From contig OX597824.1 of assembly GCA_951406725.2 (NCBI GenBank), positions 85,932,001-85,996,000 on the forward strand: a stretch of DNA of 64,000 nucleotides, given 5' to 3'. Positions 17,361-54,400 of the stretch are shown here, piece by piece (the first letter of the stretch is position 1; the number at the start of each line of letters is the position of its first letter). The stretch is from Octopus vulgaris. Taxonomy: Eukaryota. Position numbers and translations under genes: made by a program. The notes under the pieces are model-generated. The model was not told where the DNA came from and did no database searches. It saw nothing but the letters and a program-made list of their open reading frames with translations.

Positions 17361-17540
17361 GCACACACACAAAGTATGGCGGTTTAGTTCATAAGTGATC
17401 TAAACGCTGGGTAAGTGCTGTAACTTTTATGCTTCTTTTTTCTTCTCTCTTTCCATCTTATTCTTTTACCCCCGTCCTCTATGTTGTTATCTTATTGATA
17501 TATACCATTCTCATTTTCCATATCACCCCCCCCCCTATTT

Positions 17541-17596
17541 GTCTCTGATGACGCAATATCCCATACTCGGGGATATCCCAGAAACAGCTGTAAGAT
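17541..17596 (+). ncRNA. Minimal type I hammerhead ribozyme motif
   Basis: gtct-CTGATGA-(atatccc/gggatat stem)-GAAAC-agct-GTA-agat, with palindromic stem III ACAGCTGT. Confidence 0.7.
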
Positions 17597-18086
17597 TTTT
17601 AAGTTCCTCCTATAATGACATTGTATAAGACTTGCGATGTTTGCCTTGCCTTAATGTTCGACGTCCTCTTTTACTCCTTTAATTGTTTCAGTCATGTGAC
17701 TGTGGCCATGCTGGAGCACTGCCTCTAGTCGAGCAAATCGCCCCCAGGACTTATTTCTTTGTAAGCCTAGTACTTATTCTATCGGTCGCTAAGTTACGGG
17801 GACGTAAACACACCAGCATCGGTTGTCAAGCGATGTTGGGGGGGTGGGGACAAACACAGACATACAAACATGTACACATACACATACAAACACATATATA
17901 TACATATATATACGACGGGCTTCTTTCAGTTTCCGTCTACCAAATCCACTCACAAGGCTTTGGTCGGCCAGAGGCTATAGTAGAAGATACTTTCCCAAGG
18001 TGCCACGCAGTAGGGCTGAACCGGGAACCATGTGGCTGGTAAGCAAGCTGCTTACCACACAGCCACTCTTACCCCTATAGTGTAAC

Positions 18087-18172
18087 GCTTACAGCACCTA
18101 GGTTTCCCAATCGGTCACGCATCTAAGTACTAACTAGGCTCGACGTAGCTTTCAACGTATATAGCCGTAAAC
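18087..18172 (-). pseudogene. 5S rRNA pseudogene with ~30-nt internal deletion
   Basis: Matches both ends of the 18804-18920 copy; the central part is lost between short CTT microhomologies. Confidence 0.8.
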
Positions 18173-18192
18173 TAAAAAAAAAAAACACTTTG

Positions 18193-18263
18193 TGCATCGG
18201 CCGGGAATCGAACCCGGGCCGCCCGCGTGGCAGGCGAGCATTCTACCACTGAACCACCGATGC
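18193..18263 (-). tRNA. tRNA-Gly(GCC), copy 1
   Basis: Reverse complement GCATCGGTGGTTCAGTGGTAGAATGCTCGCCTGCCACGCGGGCGGCCCGGGTTCGATTCCCGGCCGATGCA: 71 nt, full cloverleaf, A and B boxes, GCC anticodon, downstream T-run terminator. Confidence 0.97.
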
Positions 18264-18584
18264 TTACGCATTTTGACGTCCTCATTATAACTTGATACTA
18301 AAAACTTTTCACTCTCTGACCGAATTTGGGTCTGTGTTTTTCTTGAGAAGCTCTAATTCTCTTTACTCTTTACTCTTTTACTTGTTTCAGTTATTTTACT
18401 GCGGCCATGCTGGAGCACCGCCTTTAGTCGAACAAATCGACCCCGGGACTTATTCTTTGTAAGCCCAGTACTTATTCTATCGGTTTCTTTTGCCGAACCG
18501 CAAAGTTACGGGGACGTAAACACACCAGCATCGGTTGTCAAGCGATGTTGGGGGGACAAACACAGACACACAAATATATACACA

Positions 18585-18650
<66 letters not shown>

Positions 18651-18803
18651 CATATATACAACGGGCTTCTTTCAGTTTCCCTAACTCCAAATCCACTCAC
18701 AAGGCTTTGGTCGGCCCGAGGCTATAGTAGAAGACACTTGCCCATGTTGAACCGGGAACCATATGGTTTGTAAGCAAGTTACTTACCACACAGCCACTCC
18801 TAC

Positions 18804-18920
18804 GCTTACAGCCCCAGGTCTCCCAAGCGGTCACCCATCTAAGTACTAACTAAGCTCGACGTTGCTTAACGTCGGTGATCGGACGAAAACCGGTACTTTC
18901 AACATGATATGACTGTAAGC
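18804..18920 (-). rRNA. 5S rRNA-like copy, near full length (117 nt), possibly a pseudogene
   Basis: Reverse complement GCTTACAGTCATATCATGTTGAAAGTACCGGTTTTCGTCCGATCACCGACGTTAAGCAACGTCGAGCTTAGTTAGTACTTAGATGGGTGACCGCTTGGGAGACC...GCTGTAAGC has the conserved eukaryotic 5S blocks (CCGATC, GTTAAGC, TTAGTACTT, GATGGGTGACC). Helix I ends pair. There is no oligo-T terminator. Confidence 0.85.
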
Positions 18921-18949
18921 TAAAAAAAAAAAAAAAAAAATTATCAATG

Positions 18950-19020
18950 TGCATCGGCCGGGAATCGAACCCGGGCCGCCCGCGTGGCAGGCGAGCATTC
19001 TACCACTGAACCACCGATGC
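18950..19020 (-). tRNA. tRNA-Gly(GCC), copy 2
   Basis: Identical 71-nt sequence to copy 1. Followed by a ~19-T run; TATAAT-like element about 25 nt upstream. Confidence 0.97.
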
Positions 19021-19481
19021 TCACTCATTTCAATGTCCTCATTATAACTTGTTACTAAAAACTTTTCACTCTCTGACCGAATTTGGGTCTATGTTCTTTT
19101 TTTTTTTAAGAAACTCTACTCGTTATTATTCACCTGTGTTCACCTGATGAAAACGGTTTTATTTATTTATTCATTCATTTATTGCATGATGTAACGCTTC
19201 AGTTCATTAATTAAAAAAAATTGTCTATTTACTCTTTTTACTCTCTCTTTTACTTGTTTCAGTCATTTGACTGTGGCCATGCTGGAACACCGCCTTTAGT
19301 CGAGAAAAATCGACCCCAGGACGTATTCTACGTAAGCCTAGTACTTATTCTATCGGTCTCTTTTGCCGAACCGCTAAGTTACGGGGATGTAAACACACCA
19401 GCATCGGTTGTCAAGCGATGTTGGGTGGGGGCAGAAACACAGACACACAAACACACACACACACACATACATACATACACA

Positions 19482-19561
<80 letters not shown>

Positions 19562-19572
19562 CATATACATAC

Positions 19573-19604
<32 letters not shown>

Positions 19605-19758
19605 GACGGGCTTCTTTCAGTTTCTCTCAACCAAATCCACTCACAAGGCTTTGGTCTGCCCGAGGCTATAGTAGAAGACACTTGCCCAAGGTGCCACGTA
19701 GTCGGACCGAACCCAGAACCATATGGTTGGTAAGCAAGCTACATGCCACACAGCCACT

Positions 19759-19856
<98 letters not shown>

Positions 19857-48908: not shown

Positions 48909-51900
48909 TCATCTATTGATTTCAGGTGCCATGTTACCAAAGAAAATAGCAAGTTTGGACATTTTGGTTTGTACACTATTACTCTCTTTCAAAATTTCCC
49001 TCATCTCATCTTCAAGATCTAGAATTCTTCGGTGAGCATTGTCTAATTCCAGTTGCTGATCTTTGGCCAACTGAGACAGGGCTTTTTGGTGTGCACTTTC
49101 CTTATCATCCAACTGTTGTCGGAACAAACTGTCCATTTTGGACATTTTCTCTTCATTTTTTTTCAGTTCATTTTTCGCTTTCTCACAAGCCTCCAGTAAA
49201 TTTTTTTCTTTGTTCTCCCAAATTGATTTCGCTTGCTTTACCTGAGTTTCTAAAGTACCAATCAAATCAGATTTTTCTTTCCAATGCTCTTTTAACAAAT
49301 AATGAGCATTCTGAGATCTTTCGAGATCTTTTACCACTTCGGCAAGTTGGCCTTTCAGTTCTGCTTTACGATCTTCAAGTTTTTCAATTGTAAACTGGCT
49401 TTCTTGTCTGGCGTCCTGTTCAAGCATCAGTTCATCTTCAATCTTTTTTTGTGCCTTGTAAGCATCTTCACGGATACCCTTTATTAATTCATCCTTCTGG
49501 TGCAACTCCGCTTTCAGGGATCTTATTGATTCAGCCTGGTCATCAATGATTTTCGTTTTTATTTTTACCGTATCTACCTCAGATTTCAGCTGCTTCTTCA
49601 GACACTCAATTTCGACTTCAAGAGATTCCAACTTGACTTCAAGCCGACCACGATCTTGAGCAAGAGAAGTCCCTTGTTGAGCAAGTTCATTCTCCCAAAC
49701 CTTCCGTTCAGCACGCAAACCCACAATAAGTGACTCTTGCGCTTCAATCTGAGCTTGATATGTCAAAGAGTCATGCTTTAATTTGTCACTTTGAGTTGCT
49801 CTCTTCTGCATCTCTGCCAGATGCTGATTAGCATCTTCCATTTGTTGTTTGTGTTTGGAAGTCATTTCTTGTTCCGATTTCAAGAGATCTGAAATCTGAT
49901 CCTTTTGTTTCTTAACAACATTTGTCAACTGTGAAAGGGTTTCACTCTTTTTCTTGTCCCTCATCTGAGCAGCAATTAAAGCCTGTTTATTGAGCTCGTT
50001 TTCTTTCACAATTGAATCACAAGCAAGTTCAAGTTGATTCACTTGGCCTGACTCAAGCTGCAAAGCATCATTCAACTCCTTCTCTACGTTCTTATAATGC
50101 TTCTCCATCATTTCAGTGCGTTCAGCCTGAAGCTTCATGCGATCTTCATATTGCAATTTAACATGTTTCAACTCCCTTTCGATCACACTGCGAAGCTCTT
50201 TACTGCCTAATTTAAACCTGTCACGCAGTTCATCTTTGTGTTCAAGTTCCCGAGATGCCAGCAACTGTTGCAGTTCGGTAACTTGTTTTTGTAAAGAAGT
50301 CACAGAACTCTTTAAGTCACCAGAGTGCTTTGTTGCAACGGCTGAAAGTTGGCGCTCCTTTTCAAACCGTTTTCTCTCTTCATTTAATAATTTCATATGA
50401 TGGTTTTCTCTTTCGATAGCAGCAGATTGAACTTCTGATAAAAGAGCTTTCTGACTTTCACTGTTTTCTTTTGCTGCATTTAGTTTTTGCTGGAGATCCT
50501 CAAGTTTTTGGTCCATAGAGCTAATTTTTTGCTCCAGATTTACGTTATGCATTTTTTCTTTGTCAAAACACTCTTTTAAGTGGTTGTTTTCTTGAATCAA
50601 TCTTTCGTACTGTGTCTTTATTTCTTGTGAACTTGCCCTGGCGTGGTTCACAGAAGCGGTCATTTCTTTTAAAGCCTGCTCAGCTTTCCAGCAGCGAGAC
50701 CGTTCCTCTGCGAGTTCTTCAATCAAATGCTTGTACGTACTTTCAATCACATCCCTGTACTCCTTATCACTCTGCTGAACTTCATTATCAACTTTTACTC
50801 CTGACTTTTTACCACCAGCACGAGAGTCCGCTTGCTTACTGCTGCAAAGATTCGGCTTTGACGGGTTCTCACTGGGGTTTTTACTTTTGATACAAGTTTT
50901 GAGAGGTTTCTGCACTGGTTTAGCAGAAACCTTAGTCGGTTTAGCAATCTTGCTTGACCTTTCCTTAGCCTTTGGCAATATTTCACTAGTTCCATTACTC
51001 TTTCTCAAAGCATTACTATCATTACTGCTGTTGTGAGGTTCTATTGTCAGACTTTCACCCCTCGTTGATTCCATACTTAAACTAGACGTCCCAGGAGGGC
51101 CATTAAATTCATCGTTCTCCGAGTTTCGCAAGTTATTCCCTGAATCAGAACCATTATCGGAATAGTATTTATATTTATATTTCTCCATAACAAGATCGAT
51201 TTGGGGCGTCTTTATTTCGCACAGAGATTGTGAATCCATACTACTTCTGGGGGTTTTACTGTCGAAACGGCCAGACTGACTTTTAAAGGAGTCGTAGGAA
51301 CTTGGGCCCACAGAGACGGGGAAATCTACACTCGAGCCAGGGTTTCGTAAAGCAATACCAGGGATATCACCTATTCTTAGGATTTCACCGCTTCTGGAGA
51401 CATTATCTAAAACAAGGATCTGAGTTAATCGCGAAAGGAGTCGCTGCCGATAGTCAATTTGGCTGCAAACCGGATTGGTCAGATCGTCTTGTTCTAAAGT
51501 AAGGCAGCGGATATTGGAGCAATCTCTCAGAGAAGTAACCAGATGACTTAAGTTAGCAATCCTGTTATCGTAAAGAGAAACAACACTCAGGGAATAATCA
51601 CTCCCGCTTACCTCTTTAAACCCACTAACGTCCTCAATTTGATTATGGCTGAGGTTTAAAATTAGGAGAGATGAGAGCGATGCCATACCTTCCACCTTTC
51701 GGATGAAATTGCACGAAAGGTTCAATATTCGGAGCATTCTGAGATTACTGAGTGCTTTCATGCTTGAAATTCTGTTGGACGACAGGTCAAGTTCCCTGAG
51801 GTAGAGCAAGTTGGATAGTTGTGTGGAGATCACTGTAAAATCGTTGCCATGCAAGTTGACAACTTCGGTGGAGTCGATCAGTGGAAGTTCCGAAGACTCC

Positions 51901-51950
51901 GAAAGACCGCGACATATTAAAGAAACTTCTTTGGCAGGCCACGGCAACAT
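48909..51950 (-). CDS. LRRCC1: Leucine-rich repeat and coiled-coil domain protein (LRRCC1/CLERC-like centrosomal protein), single uninterrupted ORF
   Basis: 1013-aa non-repetitive ORF. N-terminal SDS22-type LRRs (LNLHGN, LDLSSNRI, LNLSCNFI, LNLSHNQI, LYDNRI) and an LRR cap (NPVC..DYR...LDN) are followed by a Ser/Lys-rich linker and a ~600-aa coiled coil. Motifs such as TPQID and ELAQQGTSLAQDRGRLE fit my recollection of LRRCC1. Confidence 0.85.
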   Translation of the reverse strand: MLPWPAKEVSLICRGLSESSELPLIDSTEVVNLHGNDFTVISTQLSNLLYLRELDLSSNRISSMKALSNLRMLRILNLSCNFIRKVEGMASLSSLLILNLSHNQIEDVSGFKEVSGSDYSLSVVSLYDNRIANLSHLVTSLRDCSNIRCLTLEQDDLTNPVCSQIDYRQRLLSRLTQILVLDNVSRSGEILRIGDIPGIALRNPGSSVDFPVSVGPSSYDSFKSQSGRFDSKTPRSSMDSQSLCEIKTPQIDLVMEKYKYKYYSDNGSDSGNNLRNSENDEFNGPPGTSSLSMESTRGESLTIEPHNSSNDSNALRKSNGTSEILPKAKERSSKIAKPTKVSAKPVQKPLKTCIKSKNPSENPSKPNLCSSKQADSRAGGKKSGVKVDNEVQQSDKEYRDVIESTYKHLIEELAEERSRCWKAEQALKEMTASVNHARASSQEIKTQYERLIQENNHLKECFDKEKMHNVNLEQKISSMDQKLEDLQQKLNAAKENSESQKALLSEVQSAAIERENHHMKLLNEERKRFEKERQLSAVATKHSGDLKSSVTSLQKQVTELQQLLASRELEHKDELRDRFKLGSKELRSVIERELKHVKLQYEDRMKLQAERTEMMEKHYKNVEKELNDALQLESGQVNQLELACDSIVKENELNKQALIAAQMRDKKKSETLSQLTNVVKKQKDQISDLLKSEQEMTSKHKQQMEDANQHLAEMQKRATQSDKLKHDSLTYQAQIEAQESLIVGLRAERKVWENELAQQGTSLAQDRGRLEVKLESLEVEIECLKKQLKSEVDTVKIKTKIIDDQAESIRSLKAELHQKDELIKGIREDAYKAQKKIEDELMLEQDARQESQFTIEKLEDRKAELKGQLAEVVKDLERSQNAHYLLKEHWKEKSDLIGTLETQVKQAKSIWENKEKNLLEACEKAKNELKKNEEKMSKMDSLFRQQLDDKESAHQKALSQLAKDQQLELDNAHRRILDLEDEMREILKESNSVQTKMSKLAIFFGNMAPEINR

Positions 51951-51999
51951 TATCGGTTTAGGTGTGGAAATGACTAAAACACTGTCACAATGTAATCCA

Positions 52000-52281
52000 T
52001 CGTAGATTTACCGATTTACCAGGATCGGATCCAATGTATAATCCCGAAGTAACGCCATTTCGTTCGATGTTGTTTGTAGAAACGGTCGTGTTTGAACGTG
52101 TCTCCACTCAACAAAGAGCGATTCCCCAAGGGACACAATCAGACACCGATTTGAAATTCTTTTAATTAGTAAGATAACTGTTATTTTCTTTGATCTGGAT
52201 TCAACAACATCTATGATACCAGCATCATAACCTAGGAATTATATATGATTGTTAGATTCACAGGAGTAATCCACAATAATT

Positions 52282-52950: not shown

Positions 52951-53204
52951 GACGGGCTTCTTTCAGTTTCCGTCTACCAAATCCACTCACAAGGCTTTGG
53001 TCGGCCCGAGGCTATAGTAGAAGACACTTGCCCAAGGTGCCATGCAGTGGGAATGAACCCGGAACCATGTGGTTGGTAAGCAAGCTACTTACCACACAGC
53101 CTCCTGCGCCTATATACTTTACTTTTTCAAGGCAGTGATCTAGCATGGCCGCAGTCAAATGACTGAAACAAGTAGAAGAAATATATATATAATATATATA
53201 TATA

Positions 53205-54400
53205 ATAATAATAATAATAATGAAATTATTGTATACAGTGCTCAGGTGCACCACAACTTGTCAGAAAGTGCATATAAAGTACATGCAGTAATGTAGAAAT
53301 GTCTGGAAAGCGAACAATGTATGAGTCAGATACATGCTTGTGTGTGTATGGAGGGGAGAAAATCAAGTGTAGTGTTGGCGAATCTCAGGAAGCATGGAAG
53401 TCTTGAAGGATGCAGTGCTCCGACAACTAACAACCGATGCCGGCAGTTTGTTCCACGCTTCAGCAACTCTCAGCGTGAAAAAATGTTTCCTGAAGTCATG
53501 GGAGCTGTGCTGTTTTCTTACTTTGTAAATATGTCCACGGGTGTTAGATGGGTGGAGTTTGAAGAGGTGCTCAGTGTTATTGTTTGTGCGATGGTTGATA
53601 ATTTTATGGGTGTCTGCCAGGTCAGCTGCTAGACGTCGGAGTTTCAATGTGTCCATGCCCAGGGAAGTAAGGCGTTCAAGGATATGGCAAATGCCTGATG
53701 GAGGGTATTCTTTTGGTTGCACGTCGCTGAACAGCTTCCAGATGATTGATGTCCTGGGCAAGATAGGGGTTCCAGACCGGTGATGCAAATTCCAGGTGAG
53801 GTCTTACCATAGCTATATAAAGCCACAGATAGATAGCCGGAGAGCGGCTCACAAAGGATTTGGTGAGTGATGCCAAGACACCCTCGGCCTTCTTGACAAT
53901 TTTGGCGATGTGTTTTGTCCAACGCAAATCACTGTCGACAATAACACCCAGGTCACGTTCACTTGAAGACTTTTTGAGACTAGTGTTGTGGAGGGAGTAG
54001 GTGGACGCTGGGTTTCTCCTCCCAAAATGCATGGTGGTACATTTGTCCACAGCCAGCTTGAGTTGCCAGTCCATGATCCACTGCTGCATTGTGTCCAGGT
54101 TTGCTTGCAATAGAGATCCATAGTGTATAGGATTTGACCTCTTTATTTCGAGGTACAGCTTGATGTCATCTGCATATTTCAGCACTGTGGCATTCTTTAA
54201 GTTGGCATCTATGTCATTAACATATGCAACAAATAAAAGGGGGCCAAGAACAGATCCCTGCGGCACACCAGATGTCATCTCATAGGGCGAAGAGTGCTGT
54301 CCTAGAACTGTGACAACCTCTTTTCGGCCGAAAATAAAGGACTTTAACCAGTTATAGAGTTCGTCTCTTACACCCAACGCAGAAAGCTTCACCATAAGTC
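53205..54400 (-). mobile_element. 5'-truncated CR1/L2-group LINE (RT C-terminal half, 3' UTR, (TTA)n tail)
   Basis: SGVPQGSVLGPLLF, KYADD, ERDLGV, VRPHLEFASPVWNP, LEAVQRRATK, TRGH..K, WNKLP; one frameshift near 53680. Confidence 0.93.

What the first reader, a model, noticed from the sequence alone, without database searches (positions are those of the whole stretch)
17668..19761. Duplicated Pol III cassette: tRNA-Gly - oligo(T) - 5S rRNA - SINE, all co-oriented
Seen: on the minus strand the order is SINE-A / ~100-bp flank / tRNA-Gly / T-run / 5S / SINE-A / flank / tRNA-Gly / T-run / deleted 5S / SINE-A, with a period of 757 bp. The tRNAs are identical while the flanks and 5S copies have diverged. 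Only 20-29 nt separate tRNA from 5S, so the 5S TFIIIB footprint would overlap the tRNA end. Known: dicistronic tRNA-5S genes exist in Yarrowia lipolytica, and 5S linkage to other gene families occurs in animals. Inference: this is either a dispersed tRNA-5S linked unit or a coupled Pol III unit, duplicated by unequal crossover between the flanking SINEs. The long T-run argues against simple read-through.
Basis: partly seen in the sequence, partly recalled or inferred. Interest (0 to 1): 0.72.

Follow-up and report, generated by a model that had tools for sequence, protein, structure and literature searches.

The report
tRNA-5S-SINE triple retrocopy, later duplicated
A glycine tRNA copy, a decayed 5S ribosomal RNA copy and a short mobile element lie fused end to end between two copies of a 12-base piece of an older repeat, likely pasted in together when a reverse transcriptase hopped across three RNAs and later duplicated; this is likely not a paired tRNA-5S gene unit, but both tRNA copies are unmutated and may be working genes born this way.

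Summary
The arrangement is real, but it is not a coupled Pol III unit. Both 5S copies are decayed, lack a terminator, and the tRNA-to-5S join was found only here. The 5S+SINE half is ordinary in this genome: 67 of 80 dispersed 5S copies examined run straight into a SINE head or tail (control 3.85%). A 12-bp direct repeat encloses an 8-nt leader, tRNA, T-run, 5S and SINE, and those 12 bp are the start of an older repeat that resumes after the SINE. The best reading is one tripartite pre-tRNA/pre-5S/SINE retrocopy made by two template jumps, then duplicated in tandem (757 bp). Both tRNAs are unchanged (0 of 71 differences, against 43 of 476 in the rest of the duplicate), so they may be selected tRNA retrogenes. 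Against this: such long target duplications are rare for this SINE, and no empty site or RNA evidence was obtained. Tripartite chimeras are published (fungus, mouse), and this scan already noted 5S-, pre-tRNA- and U6-5.8S-SINE chimeras elsewhere in this genome. Modest interest.

The parts
19231..19762 (-). Solo SINE (family 'A'), separate insertion upstream; head abuts a (CA)n run
   Evidence: 7.0% from family consensus
19041..19220 (-). Old dispersed repeat R1; its 3' end abuts the target-site copy
   Evidence: 25 other matches, 68-93% identity; L252 and L254 end at query 199/200
19029..19040 (-). Decayed 5' copy of the 12-bp target-site duplication (unit 1)
19021..19028 (-). 8-nt putative pre-tRNA leader (unit 1)
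   Evidence: ends in GTGA like the bases before several other tRNA-Gly(GCC) genes
18950..19020 (-). tRNA-Gly(GCC) copy 1, identical to the canonical gene
   Evidence: same 71-mer in 25 of 28 other tRNA-Gly loci fetched
18921..18949 (-). Pre-tRNA trailer, T19 run and one A at the junction
   Evidence: same T-run + A + 5S(+1) junction in the 5S-5S chimera L271
18803..18920 (-). Full-length decayed 5S rRNA retrocopy (9 substitutions, 1-nt deletion), no terminator; its trailer is lost
18359..18802 (-). SINE A copy of unit 1 (5.6% from consensus), ending in the short tail repeat
18284..18355 (-). Duplicated 3' part of repeat R1 (start of unit 2)
   Evidence: 5 of 72 differences
18272..18283 (-). 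5' copy of the 12-bp target-site duplication (first 12 bp of repeat D)
18264..18271 (-). 8-nt putative pre-tRNA leader (unit 2)
18193..18263 (-). tRNA-Gly(GCC) copy 2, identical to copy 1
18173..18192 (-). Pre-tRNA trailer, T12 run and one A
18086..18172 (-). 5S retrocopy with a 31-nt internal deletion, a 1-nt deletion and 5 substitutions
18080..18085 (-). Remnant of the pre-5S 3' trailer, of the commonest trailer class in dispersed 5S-SINE chimeras
17669..18079 (-). SINE A copy of unit 2 (5.0% from consensus); its tail overlaps the target copy by 3 nt
17657..17668 (-). 3' copy of the 12-bp target-site duplication
17422..17668 (-). Multi-copy repeat D, interrupted by the insertion near its start

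Best explanation
The leader-tRNA-Gly, T-run, 5S and SINE lie inside one 12-bp direct repeat and are likely a single tripartite retrocopy, made when a LINE reverse transcriptase likely copied a SINE RNA and then jumped onto a U-tailed pre-5S RNA and a U-tailed pre-tRNA; the unit was then duplicated in tandem. Shown: the order of parts, the direct repeat, that the repeat is the start of element D, that dispersed 5S copies are nearly always fused to a SINE, the decay of 5S and SINE, and the unchanged tRNAs. Inferred: one insertion event; template jumping rather than RNA ligation before reverse transcription; a LINE as the enzyme source (clade not tested); an early duplication (the two 5S copies share no substitution); and that the tRNA copies, which carry internal promoter boxes and their own T terminator, work as ordinary single tRNA genes kept by selection while the 5S passengers decay.
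For: Direct repeat 12 bp, 11 of 12 identical, ending 8 nt before tRNA 2 and starting at the SINE tail; 0 of 990 unrelated 60-nt stretches scored as well. The sequence after the SINE is a multi-copy repeat whose consensus start matches that 12-mer at 11 of 12 bases, and all three window copies share the minority G at its first base. Upstream of the 12-mer is another repeat that ends exactly there, so the tRNA sits between repeat pieces, not in a gene flank. 67 of 80 dispersed 5S 3' ends are followed within 32 nt by a SINE head or shared tail, against 3.85% of 2000 random places and 2 of 80 on the opposite strand; 52 of 80 begin at +1 to +5; trailers vary, so the fusions arose many times. Pre-tRNA-SINE joins occur too. 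An independent 5S-5S-retroelement chimera has the same T-run + A + 5S(+1) junction (L271). tRNA 0 of 71 differences against 43 of 476 elsewhere in the duplicate, Fisher p = 0.0035; expected 4.8 changes per copy, P(0 in both) about 5e-5.
Against: Long target duplications are rare for this element: 0 of 33 solo SINE A copies reach score 8, 0 of 30 5S chimeras reach 7, and 0 of 10 tRNA chimeras reach 10. Three of the 12 bases could be SINE tail. The unit-1 copy of the repeat matches the 3' copy at only 10 of 12 and unit 2 at 9 of 12. The two tRNA trailers hardly align and no exact source gene for either was seen among the first 100 of 147 rows listed. The 72-bp R1 piece also has a 55-bp stretch with one difference, so local gene conversion could add to the tRNA identity. 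No empty site and no RNA evidence were obtained.
Confidence: 0.75

Rival explanations
1. Two steps: a tRNA-Gly gene (or an earlier pre-tRNA retrocopy) was already here, and an ordinary 5S-SINE chimeric retrocopy later landed right behind its T terminator; the 12-bp repeat is chance or belongs to the earlier event.
For: This SINE family rarely makes long target duplications. SINEs do sit just behind tRNA genes inside a tRNA cluster (L126, L127). The intact tRNA is what an old gene would show. PMC4476161 (passage) notes that tripartite structures can also come from two events. RTE-type elements favour sites near T stretches (PMC6007223, abstract).
Against: The 12-mer before the leader is the start of repeat D, which resumes exactly after the SINE tail, and the DNA upstream is another repeat. 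None of 28 other tRNA-Gly loci fetched has a 5S nearby, so there is no sign of targeting.
Confidence: 0.18
2. A functional tRNA-5S linked or dicistronic Pol III unit, as in Yarrowia, in which the tRNA promoter drives or helps 5S expression.
For: Co-orientation, 20-29 nt spacing, intact tRNA, and 5S copy 1 still scores 94 bits. The main fused tRNA in Yarrowia is also Gly(GCC).
Against: One locus only. T19 and T12 terminators lie between the genes; Yarrowia gaps are 4-7 nt. 5S copy 1 has 10 changes and copy 2 has lost 31 nt. Neither has a terminator or the upstream element of the real 5S cluster on C4.
Confidence: 0.03
3. Same single insertion, but the RNAs were joined by an RNA ligase before reverse transcription, not by template jumps; or the tRNA identity comes from gene conversion and the copies are silent.
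For: Ligation is reported for U6/L1 chimeras (PMC6789731, search listing only). Patchy divergence within the duplicate.
Against: The DNA cannot tell ligation from jumping; trailers of varied length ending in T's plus an A fit jumps onto U-tailed 3' ends. Conversion would have to spare the leader and trailer on both sides of the tRNA body. This rival overlaps the best explanation on the single-insertion point.
Confidence: 0.2

Closest known systems
Tripartite chimeric retrocopies: WEIRD/Mg-SINE/MGL-LINE of Magnaporthe and B2/U6/L1 of mouse (PMC2104539; abstract and section 8 read)
   Same: Three co-oriented RNA copies inside one 12-16 bp direct repeat, retroelement at the 3' end, explained by a double template switch.
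   Different: Here the parts are pre-tRNA, pre-5S and a full-length SINE; both passengers keep precursor trailers; the unit was duplicated and one part (tRNA) is unchanged.
U6-L2, U6-Mon-1, U6-RTEX and U6-AnolisSINE2 chimeras of platypus and Anolis (PMC4476161; passages read)
   Same: With stringent LINEs, small RNAs are mobilised only as fusions to the element or its SINE; matches 67 of 80 dispersed 5S copies here being fused.
   Different: Reported for U6; here 5S and pre-tRNA, in a mollusc-type genome, mostly without long target duplications.
5S/L1 and tRNA/L1 chimeras of mammals (PMC11838501; passages read)
   Same: 5S and tRNA sequence fused to a retroelement in one insertion.
   Different: There mostly antisense and truncated (twin priming); here sense, full-length and with precursor trailers.
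Dicistronic tRNA-5S genes of Yarrowia lipolytica (PMC2566860; passages read)
   Same: tRNA-Gly(GCC) directly upstream of a co-oriented 5S.
   Different: Yarrowia: 48 units, 4-7 nt gap, 5S intact and expressed. Here: one locus, T19/T12 terminator between, 5S decayed.
5S-headed SINEs (SINE3; 5S-fused Deu-SINE subgroup; passage in PMC4758252)
   Same: 5S sequence in front of a tRNA-derived SINE head or LINE-type tail.
   Different: Many different trailers and at least four partners point to repeated one-off fusions, not one amplified master.

Membership tests
Tripartite template-switch retrocopy | Three co-oriented RNA-derived parts with the retroelement at the 3' end | tested here: met
Tripartite template-switch retrocopy | One target-site duplication around all three parts | tested here: met
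   12 bp, 11 of 12 identical, null 0 of 990, equals the start of interrupted repeat D; atypically long for this SINE family
Tripartite template-switch retrocopy | Passengers end at RNA ends (5S at +1; precursor leader, trailer and U-tail) | tested here: met
   5S starts at +1; trailer remnant of the common class; leader ends like those of paralogues; exact source tRNA gene not found
Tripartite template-switch retrocopy | Empty orthologous site with one copy of the target | tested here: inconclusive
   the downstream flank is a repeat, so orthologous contigs could not be told from paralogues; the tRNA-side junction was not read in other runs
Tripartite template-switch retrocopy | Joining by reverse-transcriptase jumps, and identity of the partner LINE | not testable with these tools
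   jump versus ligation needs biochemistry; the partner LINE was not sought
Yarrowia-type dicistronic tRNA-5S gene | 4-7 nt gap between tRNA and 5S, no terminator between them | tested here: not met
   29 and 20 nt with T19 and T12 (PMC2566860)
Yarrowia-type dicistronic tRNA-5S gene | Intact 5S followed by a terminator | tested here: not met
Yarrowia-type dicistronic tRNA-5S gene | Many copies across the genome | tested here: not met
   1 match in each of two patterns; 0 of 28 other tRNA-Gly loci; 0 of 80 dispersed 5S. Decayed copies can be missed: both patterns miss unit 2
Yarrowia-type dicistronic tRNA-5S gene | Co-transcribed precursor detected | not tested
   no RNA reads were laid on the junction
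5S-derived SINE family (SINE3) | One fixed 5S-to-body junction amplified from a master copy | tested here: not met
   41 different 7-nt trailer starts and four partner types among 80 copies; one trailer class is common (17 of 80 exact), so a small sub-family is not excluded
Functional tRNA gene | Canonical sequence with A and B boxes, T terminator, purifying selection | tested here: met
   expression itself not tested

The most novel reading that the evidence does not exclude
Reverse-transcriptase jumping onto U-tailed Pol III precursors is a working factory for new tRNA genes in this lineage: both tRNA-Gly copies here are expressed, selected genes that were born as passengers on a SINE, terminator included. 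The same route builds tRNA-then-5S adjacency in one step and, with a shorter U-tail and an intact 5S, could seed Yarrowia-type dicistrons.
Probability: 0.35. Interest if true: 0.6.

Novelty: new member of a known kind. Interest (0 to 1): 0.36.

Why it matters
It explains an apparent tRNA-5S linkage as a retrotransposition fossil, a warning for surveys that count 5S linkage to other small-RNA genes. If the tRNAs prove active, it is a datable example of tRNA genes born by RNA capture and kept by selection, which makes a little-tested route of tRNA gene gain testable genome-wide in a species with many such fusions.

Tried and rejected
Target-site search around 38 dispersed 5S chimeras gave mostly microsatellite matches, near the shuffled level; the stricter repeat gave 0 of 30. 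The reversed-pattern controls (0 and 1) are too weak, since a reversed SINE is not a repeat; one search is the control used, and many of the 148 matches are chance (ARAGORN called an abutting tRNA in 8 of 29 loci). Sharing of derived bases among the three SINEs did not settle the duplication route: B and C share one rare state, A and B two, none in the 3' half. Laying contigs of four DNA runs on the downstream flank showed it is a repeat and could not isolate the orthologous site. Rfam at E 0.05 on 20 dispersed 5S loci found no other small RNA before the 5S, only microsatellite noise and one 5S-5S pair. The fold of leader-tRNA-5S shows two separate domains and decides nothing. A word search of earlier scan notes for this exact combination found 0. 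Paper searches listed no report of a tRNA-5S-SINE chimera or of tRNA-5S linkage in octopus; most subscription papers and all supplements were not seen.

Full report
Observation. The arrangement is as described. ARAGORN and Rfam give two identical tRNA-Gly(GCC) on the minus strand (18950-19020, 18193-18263), a full 5S (18803-18920, 94.3 bits) and a deleted 5S (18086-18172, 44.3 bits). The gaps are 29 and 20 nt with T19 and T12 and a single A before the 5S. Three copies of one tRNA-type SINE (here 'A') are co-oriented. The 757-bp period holds for the tRNA and its flank only. The organism is likely an octopus, a label taken from earlier scan notes and not tested here.

The linkage is local. A DNA search of the genome with flank+tRNA+5S listed 41 matches (40 of 1404 candidates scored); only the two window units span both genes. 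Two patterns for tRNA B box followed by a 5S start each gave one match, unit 1; both miss the more decayed unit 2, so decayed cases elsewhere can be missed. Of 30 tRNA-Gly loci fetched (of 131 candidates), the 28 outside the window have no 5S within 1.5 kb. Intact 5S genes cluster on C4 at 35.20-35.33 Mb with a shared AT-rich upstream element and T terminators; the window copies have neither.

The 5S+SINE half belongs to a large class. A pattern for 5S 3' end followed by the SINE A head gave 82 exact junctions on many contigs, with varied trailers and T numbers. For an unbiased view I took the first 83 listed of 241 exact 5S 3' ends, dropped 3 in the C4 cluster, and fetched 80. 67 of 80 are followed within 32 nt by a SINE head (A 32, B 9, C 4) or by the shared 3' tail (22); random places give 3.85% of 2000 and the opposite strand upstream 2 of 80; 52 of 80 start at +1 to +5. 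None has a tRNA upstream. This is the pattern of precursor 5S RNAs, trailer and U-tail included, copied onto retroelement cDNA. Unit 2 keeps a remnant of the commonest trailer class; unit 1 has lost it. Pre-tRNA-SINE joins exist as well (L094, L098, L115 for Gly; 8 of 29 loci by ARAGORN), and L271 is a 5S-5S-retroelement chain with the same T-run + A + 5S(+1) junction.

The tRNA appears to be inside the insertion. A 12-bp repeat lies 8 nt before each tRNA (18272-18283; decayed at 19029-19040) and right after the last SINE tail (17657-17668). 0 of 990 unrelated stretches matched as well. The DNA after the SINE is a multi-copy repeat D whose consensus start matches this 12-mer at 11 of 12 bases; all three window copies carry the minority first base. 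The DNA before the 12-mer is a different old repeat, R1, that ends exactly there in two other full copies. So repeat D was opened near its start and leader-tRNA-T-5S-SINE put in. Against this: long duplications are rare for this SINE (0 of 33 solo copies at score 8; 0 of 30 5S chimeras at 7 and 0 of 10 tRNA chimeras at 10), three of the 12 bases overlap the SINE tail, and no empty site was read (one search was swamped by paralogues; the tRNA-side junction was not read in other runs).

Duplication. Unit 2 repeats the last 72-78 bp of R1 through the SINE. SINEs B and C are 5.6% and 5.0% from the consensus of 75 copies (family median 5.9%) and differ at 35 of 352 sites; the two 5S copies share no substitution. 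The duplication therefore likely came soon after insertion. The breakpoint lies at the SINE tail. Either a microhomology duplication, or unequal crossover through the upstream solo SINE followed by loss of about 109 bp between two TAGA words, fits the junction; shared-state counts do not decide.

What works and what does not. 5S copy 1 has 9 substitutions and a 1-nt deletion, copy 2 has 5 substitutions, a 1-nt and a 31-nt deletion, and neither has a terminator: both look dead (inference). The tRNAs differ at 0 of 71 sites, against 43 of 476 in the rest of the duplicate (Fisher p = 0.0035); from the decay of their own 5S and SINE parts 4.8 changes per copy are expected (P about 5e-5 for none in both; this rate may be a little high because it is measured against a consensus). 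The same 71-mer is in 25 of 28 other tRNA-Gly loci. tRNA genes have internal promoters (established knowledge), and the copied U-tail supplies a terminator, so a retroposed pre-tRNA can be a complete gene. Selection is the simplest reading; gene conversion is the alternative; expression was not tested.

Mechanism, most likely (0.75). A LINE enzyme primed on the SINE tail at repeat D, copied the SINE, jumped to the U-tail of a pre-5S RNA, copied it to +1, jumped to the U-tail of a pre-tRNA-Gly, copied it through an 8-nt leader, and finished with a 12-bp duplication; the unit was then duplicated. The order, repeat, decay and genome-wide class are shown; the single event, jumping versus ligation, the enzyme and tRNA activity are inferred.

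Known relatives. Tripartite chimeras with 14-16 bp repeats are described in Magnaporthe and mouse (PMC2104539, abstract and section 8). U6 fusions to L2, RTE and their SINEs are described in platypus and Anolis, with the note that stringent LINEs mobilise small RNAs only as fusions and that tripartite forms can also arise in two steps (PMC4476161, passages). Mammalian 5S/L1 and tRNA/L1 chimeras are mostly antisense and truncated (PMC11838501, passages). Yarrowia dicistrons have 4-7 nt gaps and intact 5S (PMC2566860, passages), which this locus fails. PMC6007223 (abstract), PMC4758252 and PMC9115989 (passages) gave background; PMC6789731 was seen as a listing only. Searches listed no paper on a tRNA-5S-SINE chimera or tRNA-5S linkage in octopus; supplements were not read. 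Earlier notes of this scan already describe 5S-SINE, pre-tRNA-SINE and U6-5.8S-SINE chimeras on other DNA of this genome; they are unchecked notes and came after my own reading was formed (notes).

Verdict. A real feature, a new member of a known kind. The part worth following is the possibility that two working tRNA genes were born this way. Interest 0.36.

Noticed in passing
G000:C4:35.20-35.33 Mb (L031, L032, L034-L037, L040-L059): The intact 5S genes form a cluster with mixed head-to-head and tail-to-tail orientation, spacings of 0.4-1.3 kb inside ~5-kb higher-order units, and a shared AT-rich upstream element, unlike a simple head-to-tail array.
   Followed up: partly
L271 (G000:C25:5354954-5355202): Two identical, intact 5S copies, each with trailer and one A, followed by an RT-like reading frame (Penelope-like by eye, not tested): a young 5S-5S-retroelement triple chimera.
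   Followed up: partly
L098 1504-1574, L094 1501-1571, L115 1503-1573: tRNA-Gly(GCC) fused through its trailer to a truncated SINE or tail; L098 has a 7-bp direct repeat and a perfect tRNA beside a SINE part with 7 of 127 differences.
   Followed up: partly
L151-L230: 22 of 80 dispersed 5S copies are joined to a ~50-nt 3' tail at almost the same point, a hot spot for the jump and a ready-made SINE3-like structure. L158 has a different tail and, by eye, a 14-bp direct repeat.
   Followed up: partly
L131 1531-1643: Intron-containing tRNA (113 nt) with trailer joined to a SINE A and a 7-bp direct repeat: the intron is retained, as expected for an unspliced precursor.
   Followed up: no
window 48912-52007, minus strand: 1032-codon open frame with N-terminal leucine-rich repeats (Pfam LRR_4, E 2.6e-10); probably a long exon of a protein gene.
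   Followed up: no
window 53200-54400, minus strand: Truncated LINE with an RVT_1 match (E 5e-19) and an (ATT)n tail; its 3' end differs from the SINE A tail.
   Followed up: no
L236, L237, L240, L243, L254: Repeats D and R1 occur as inverted pairs in several loci, suggesting arms of foldback or MITE-type elements.
   Followed up: no
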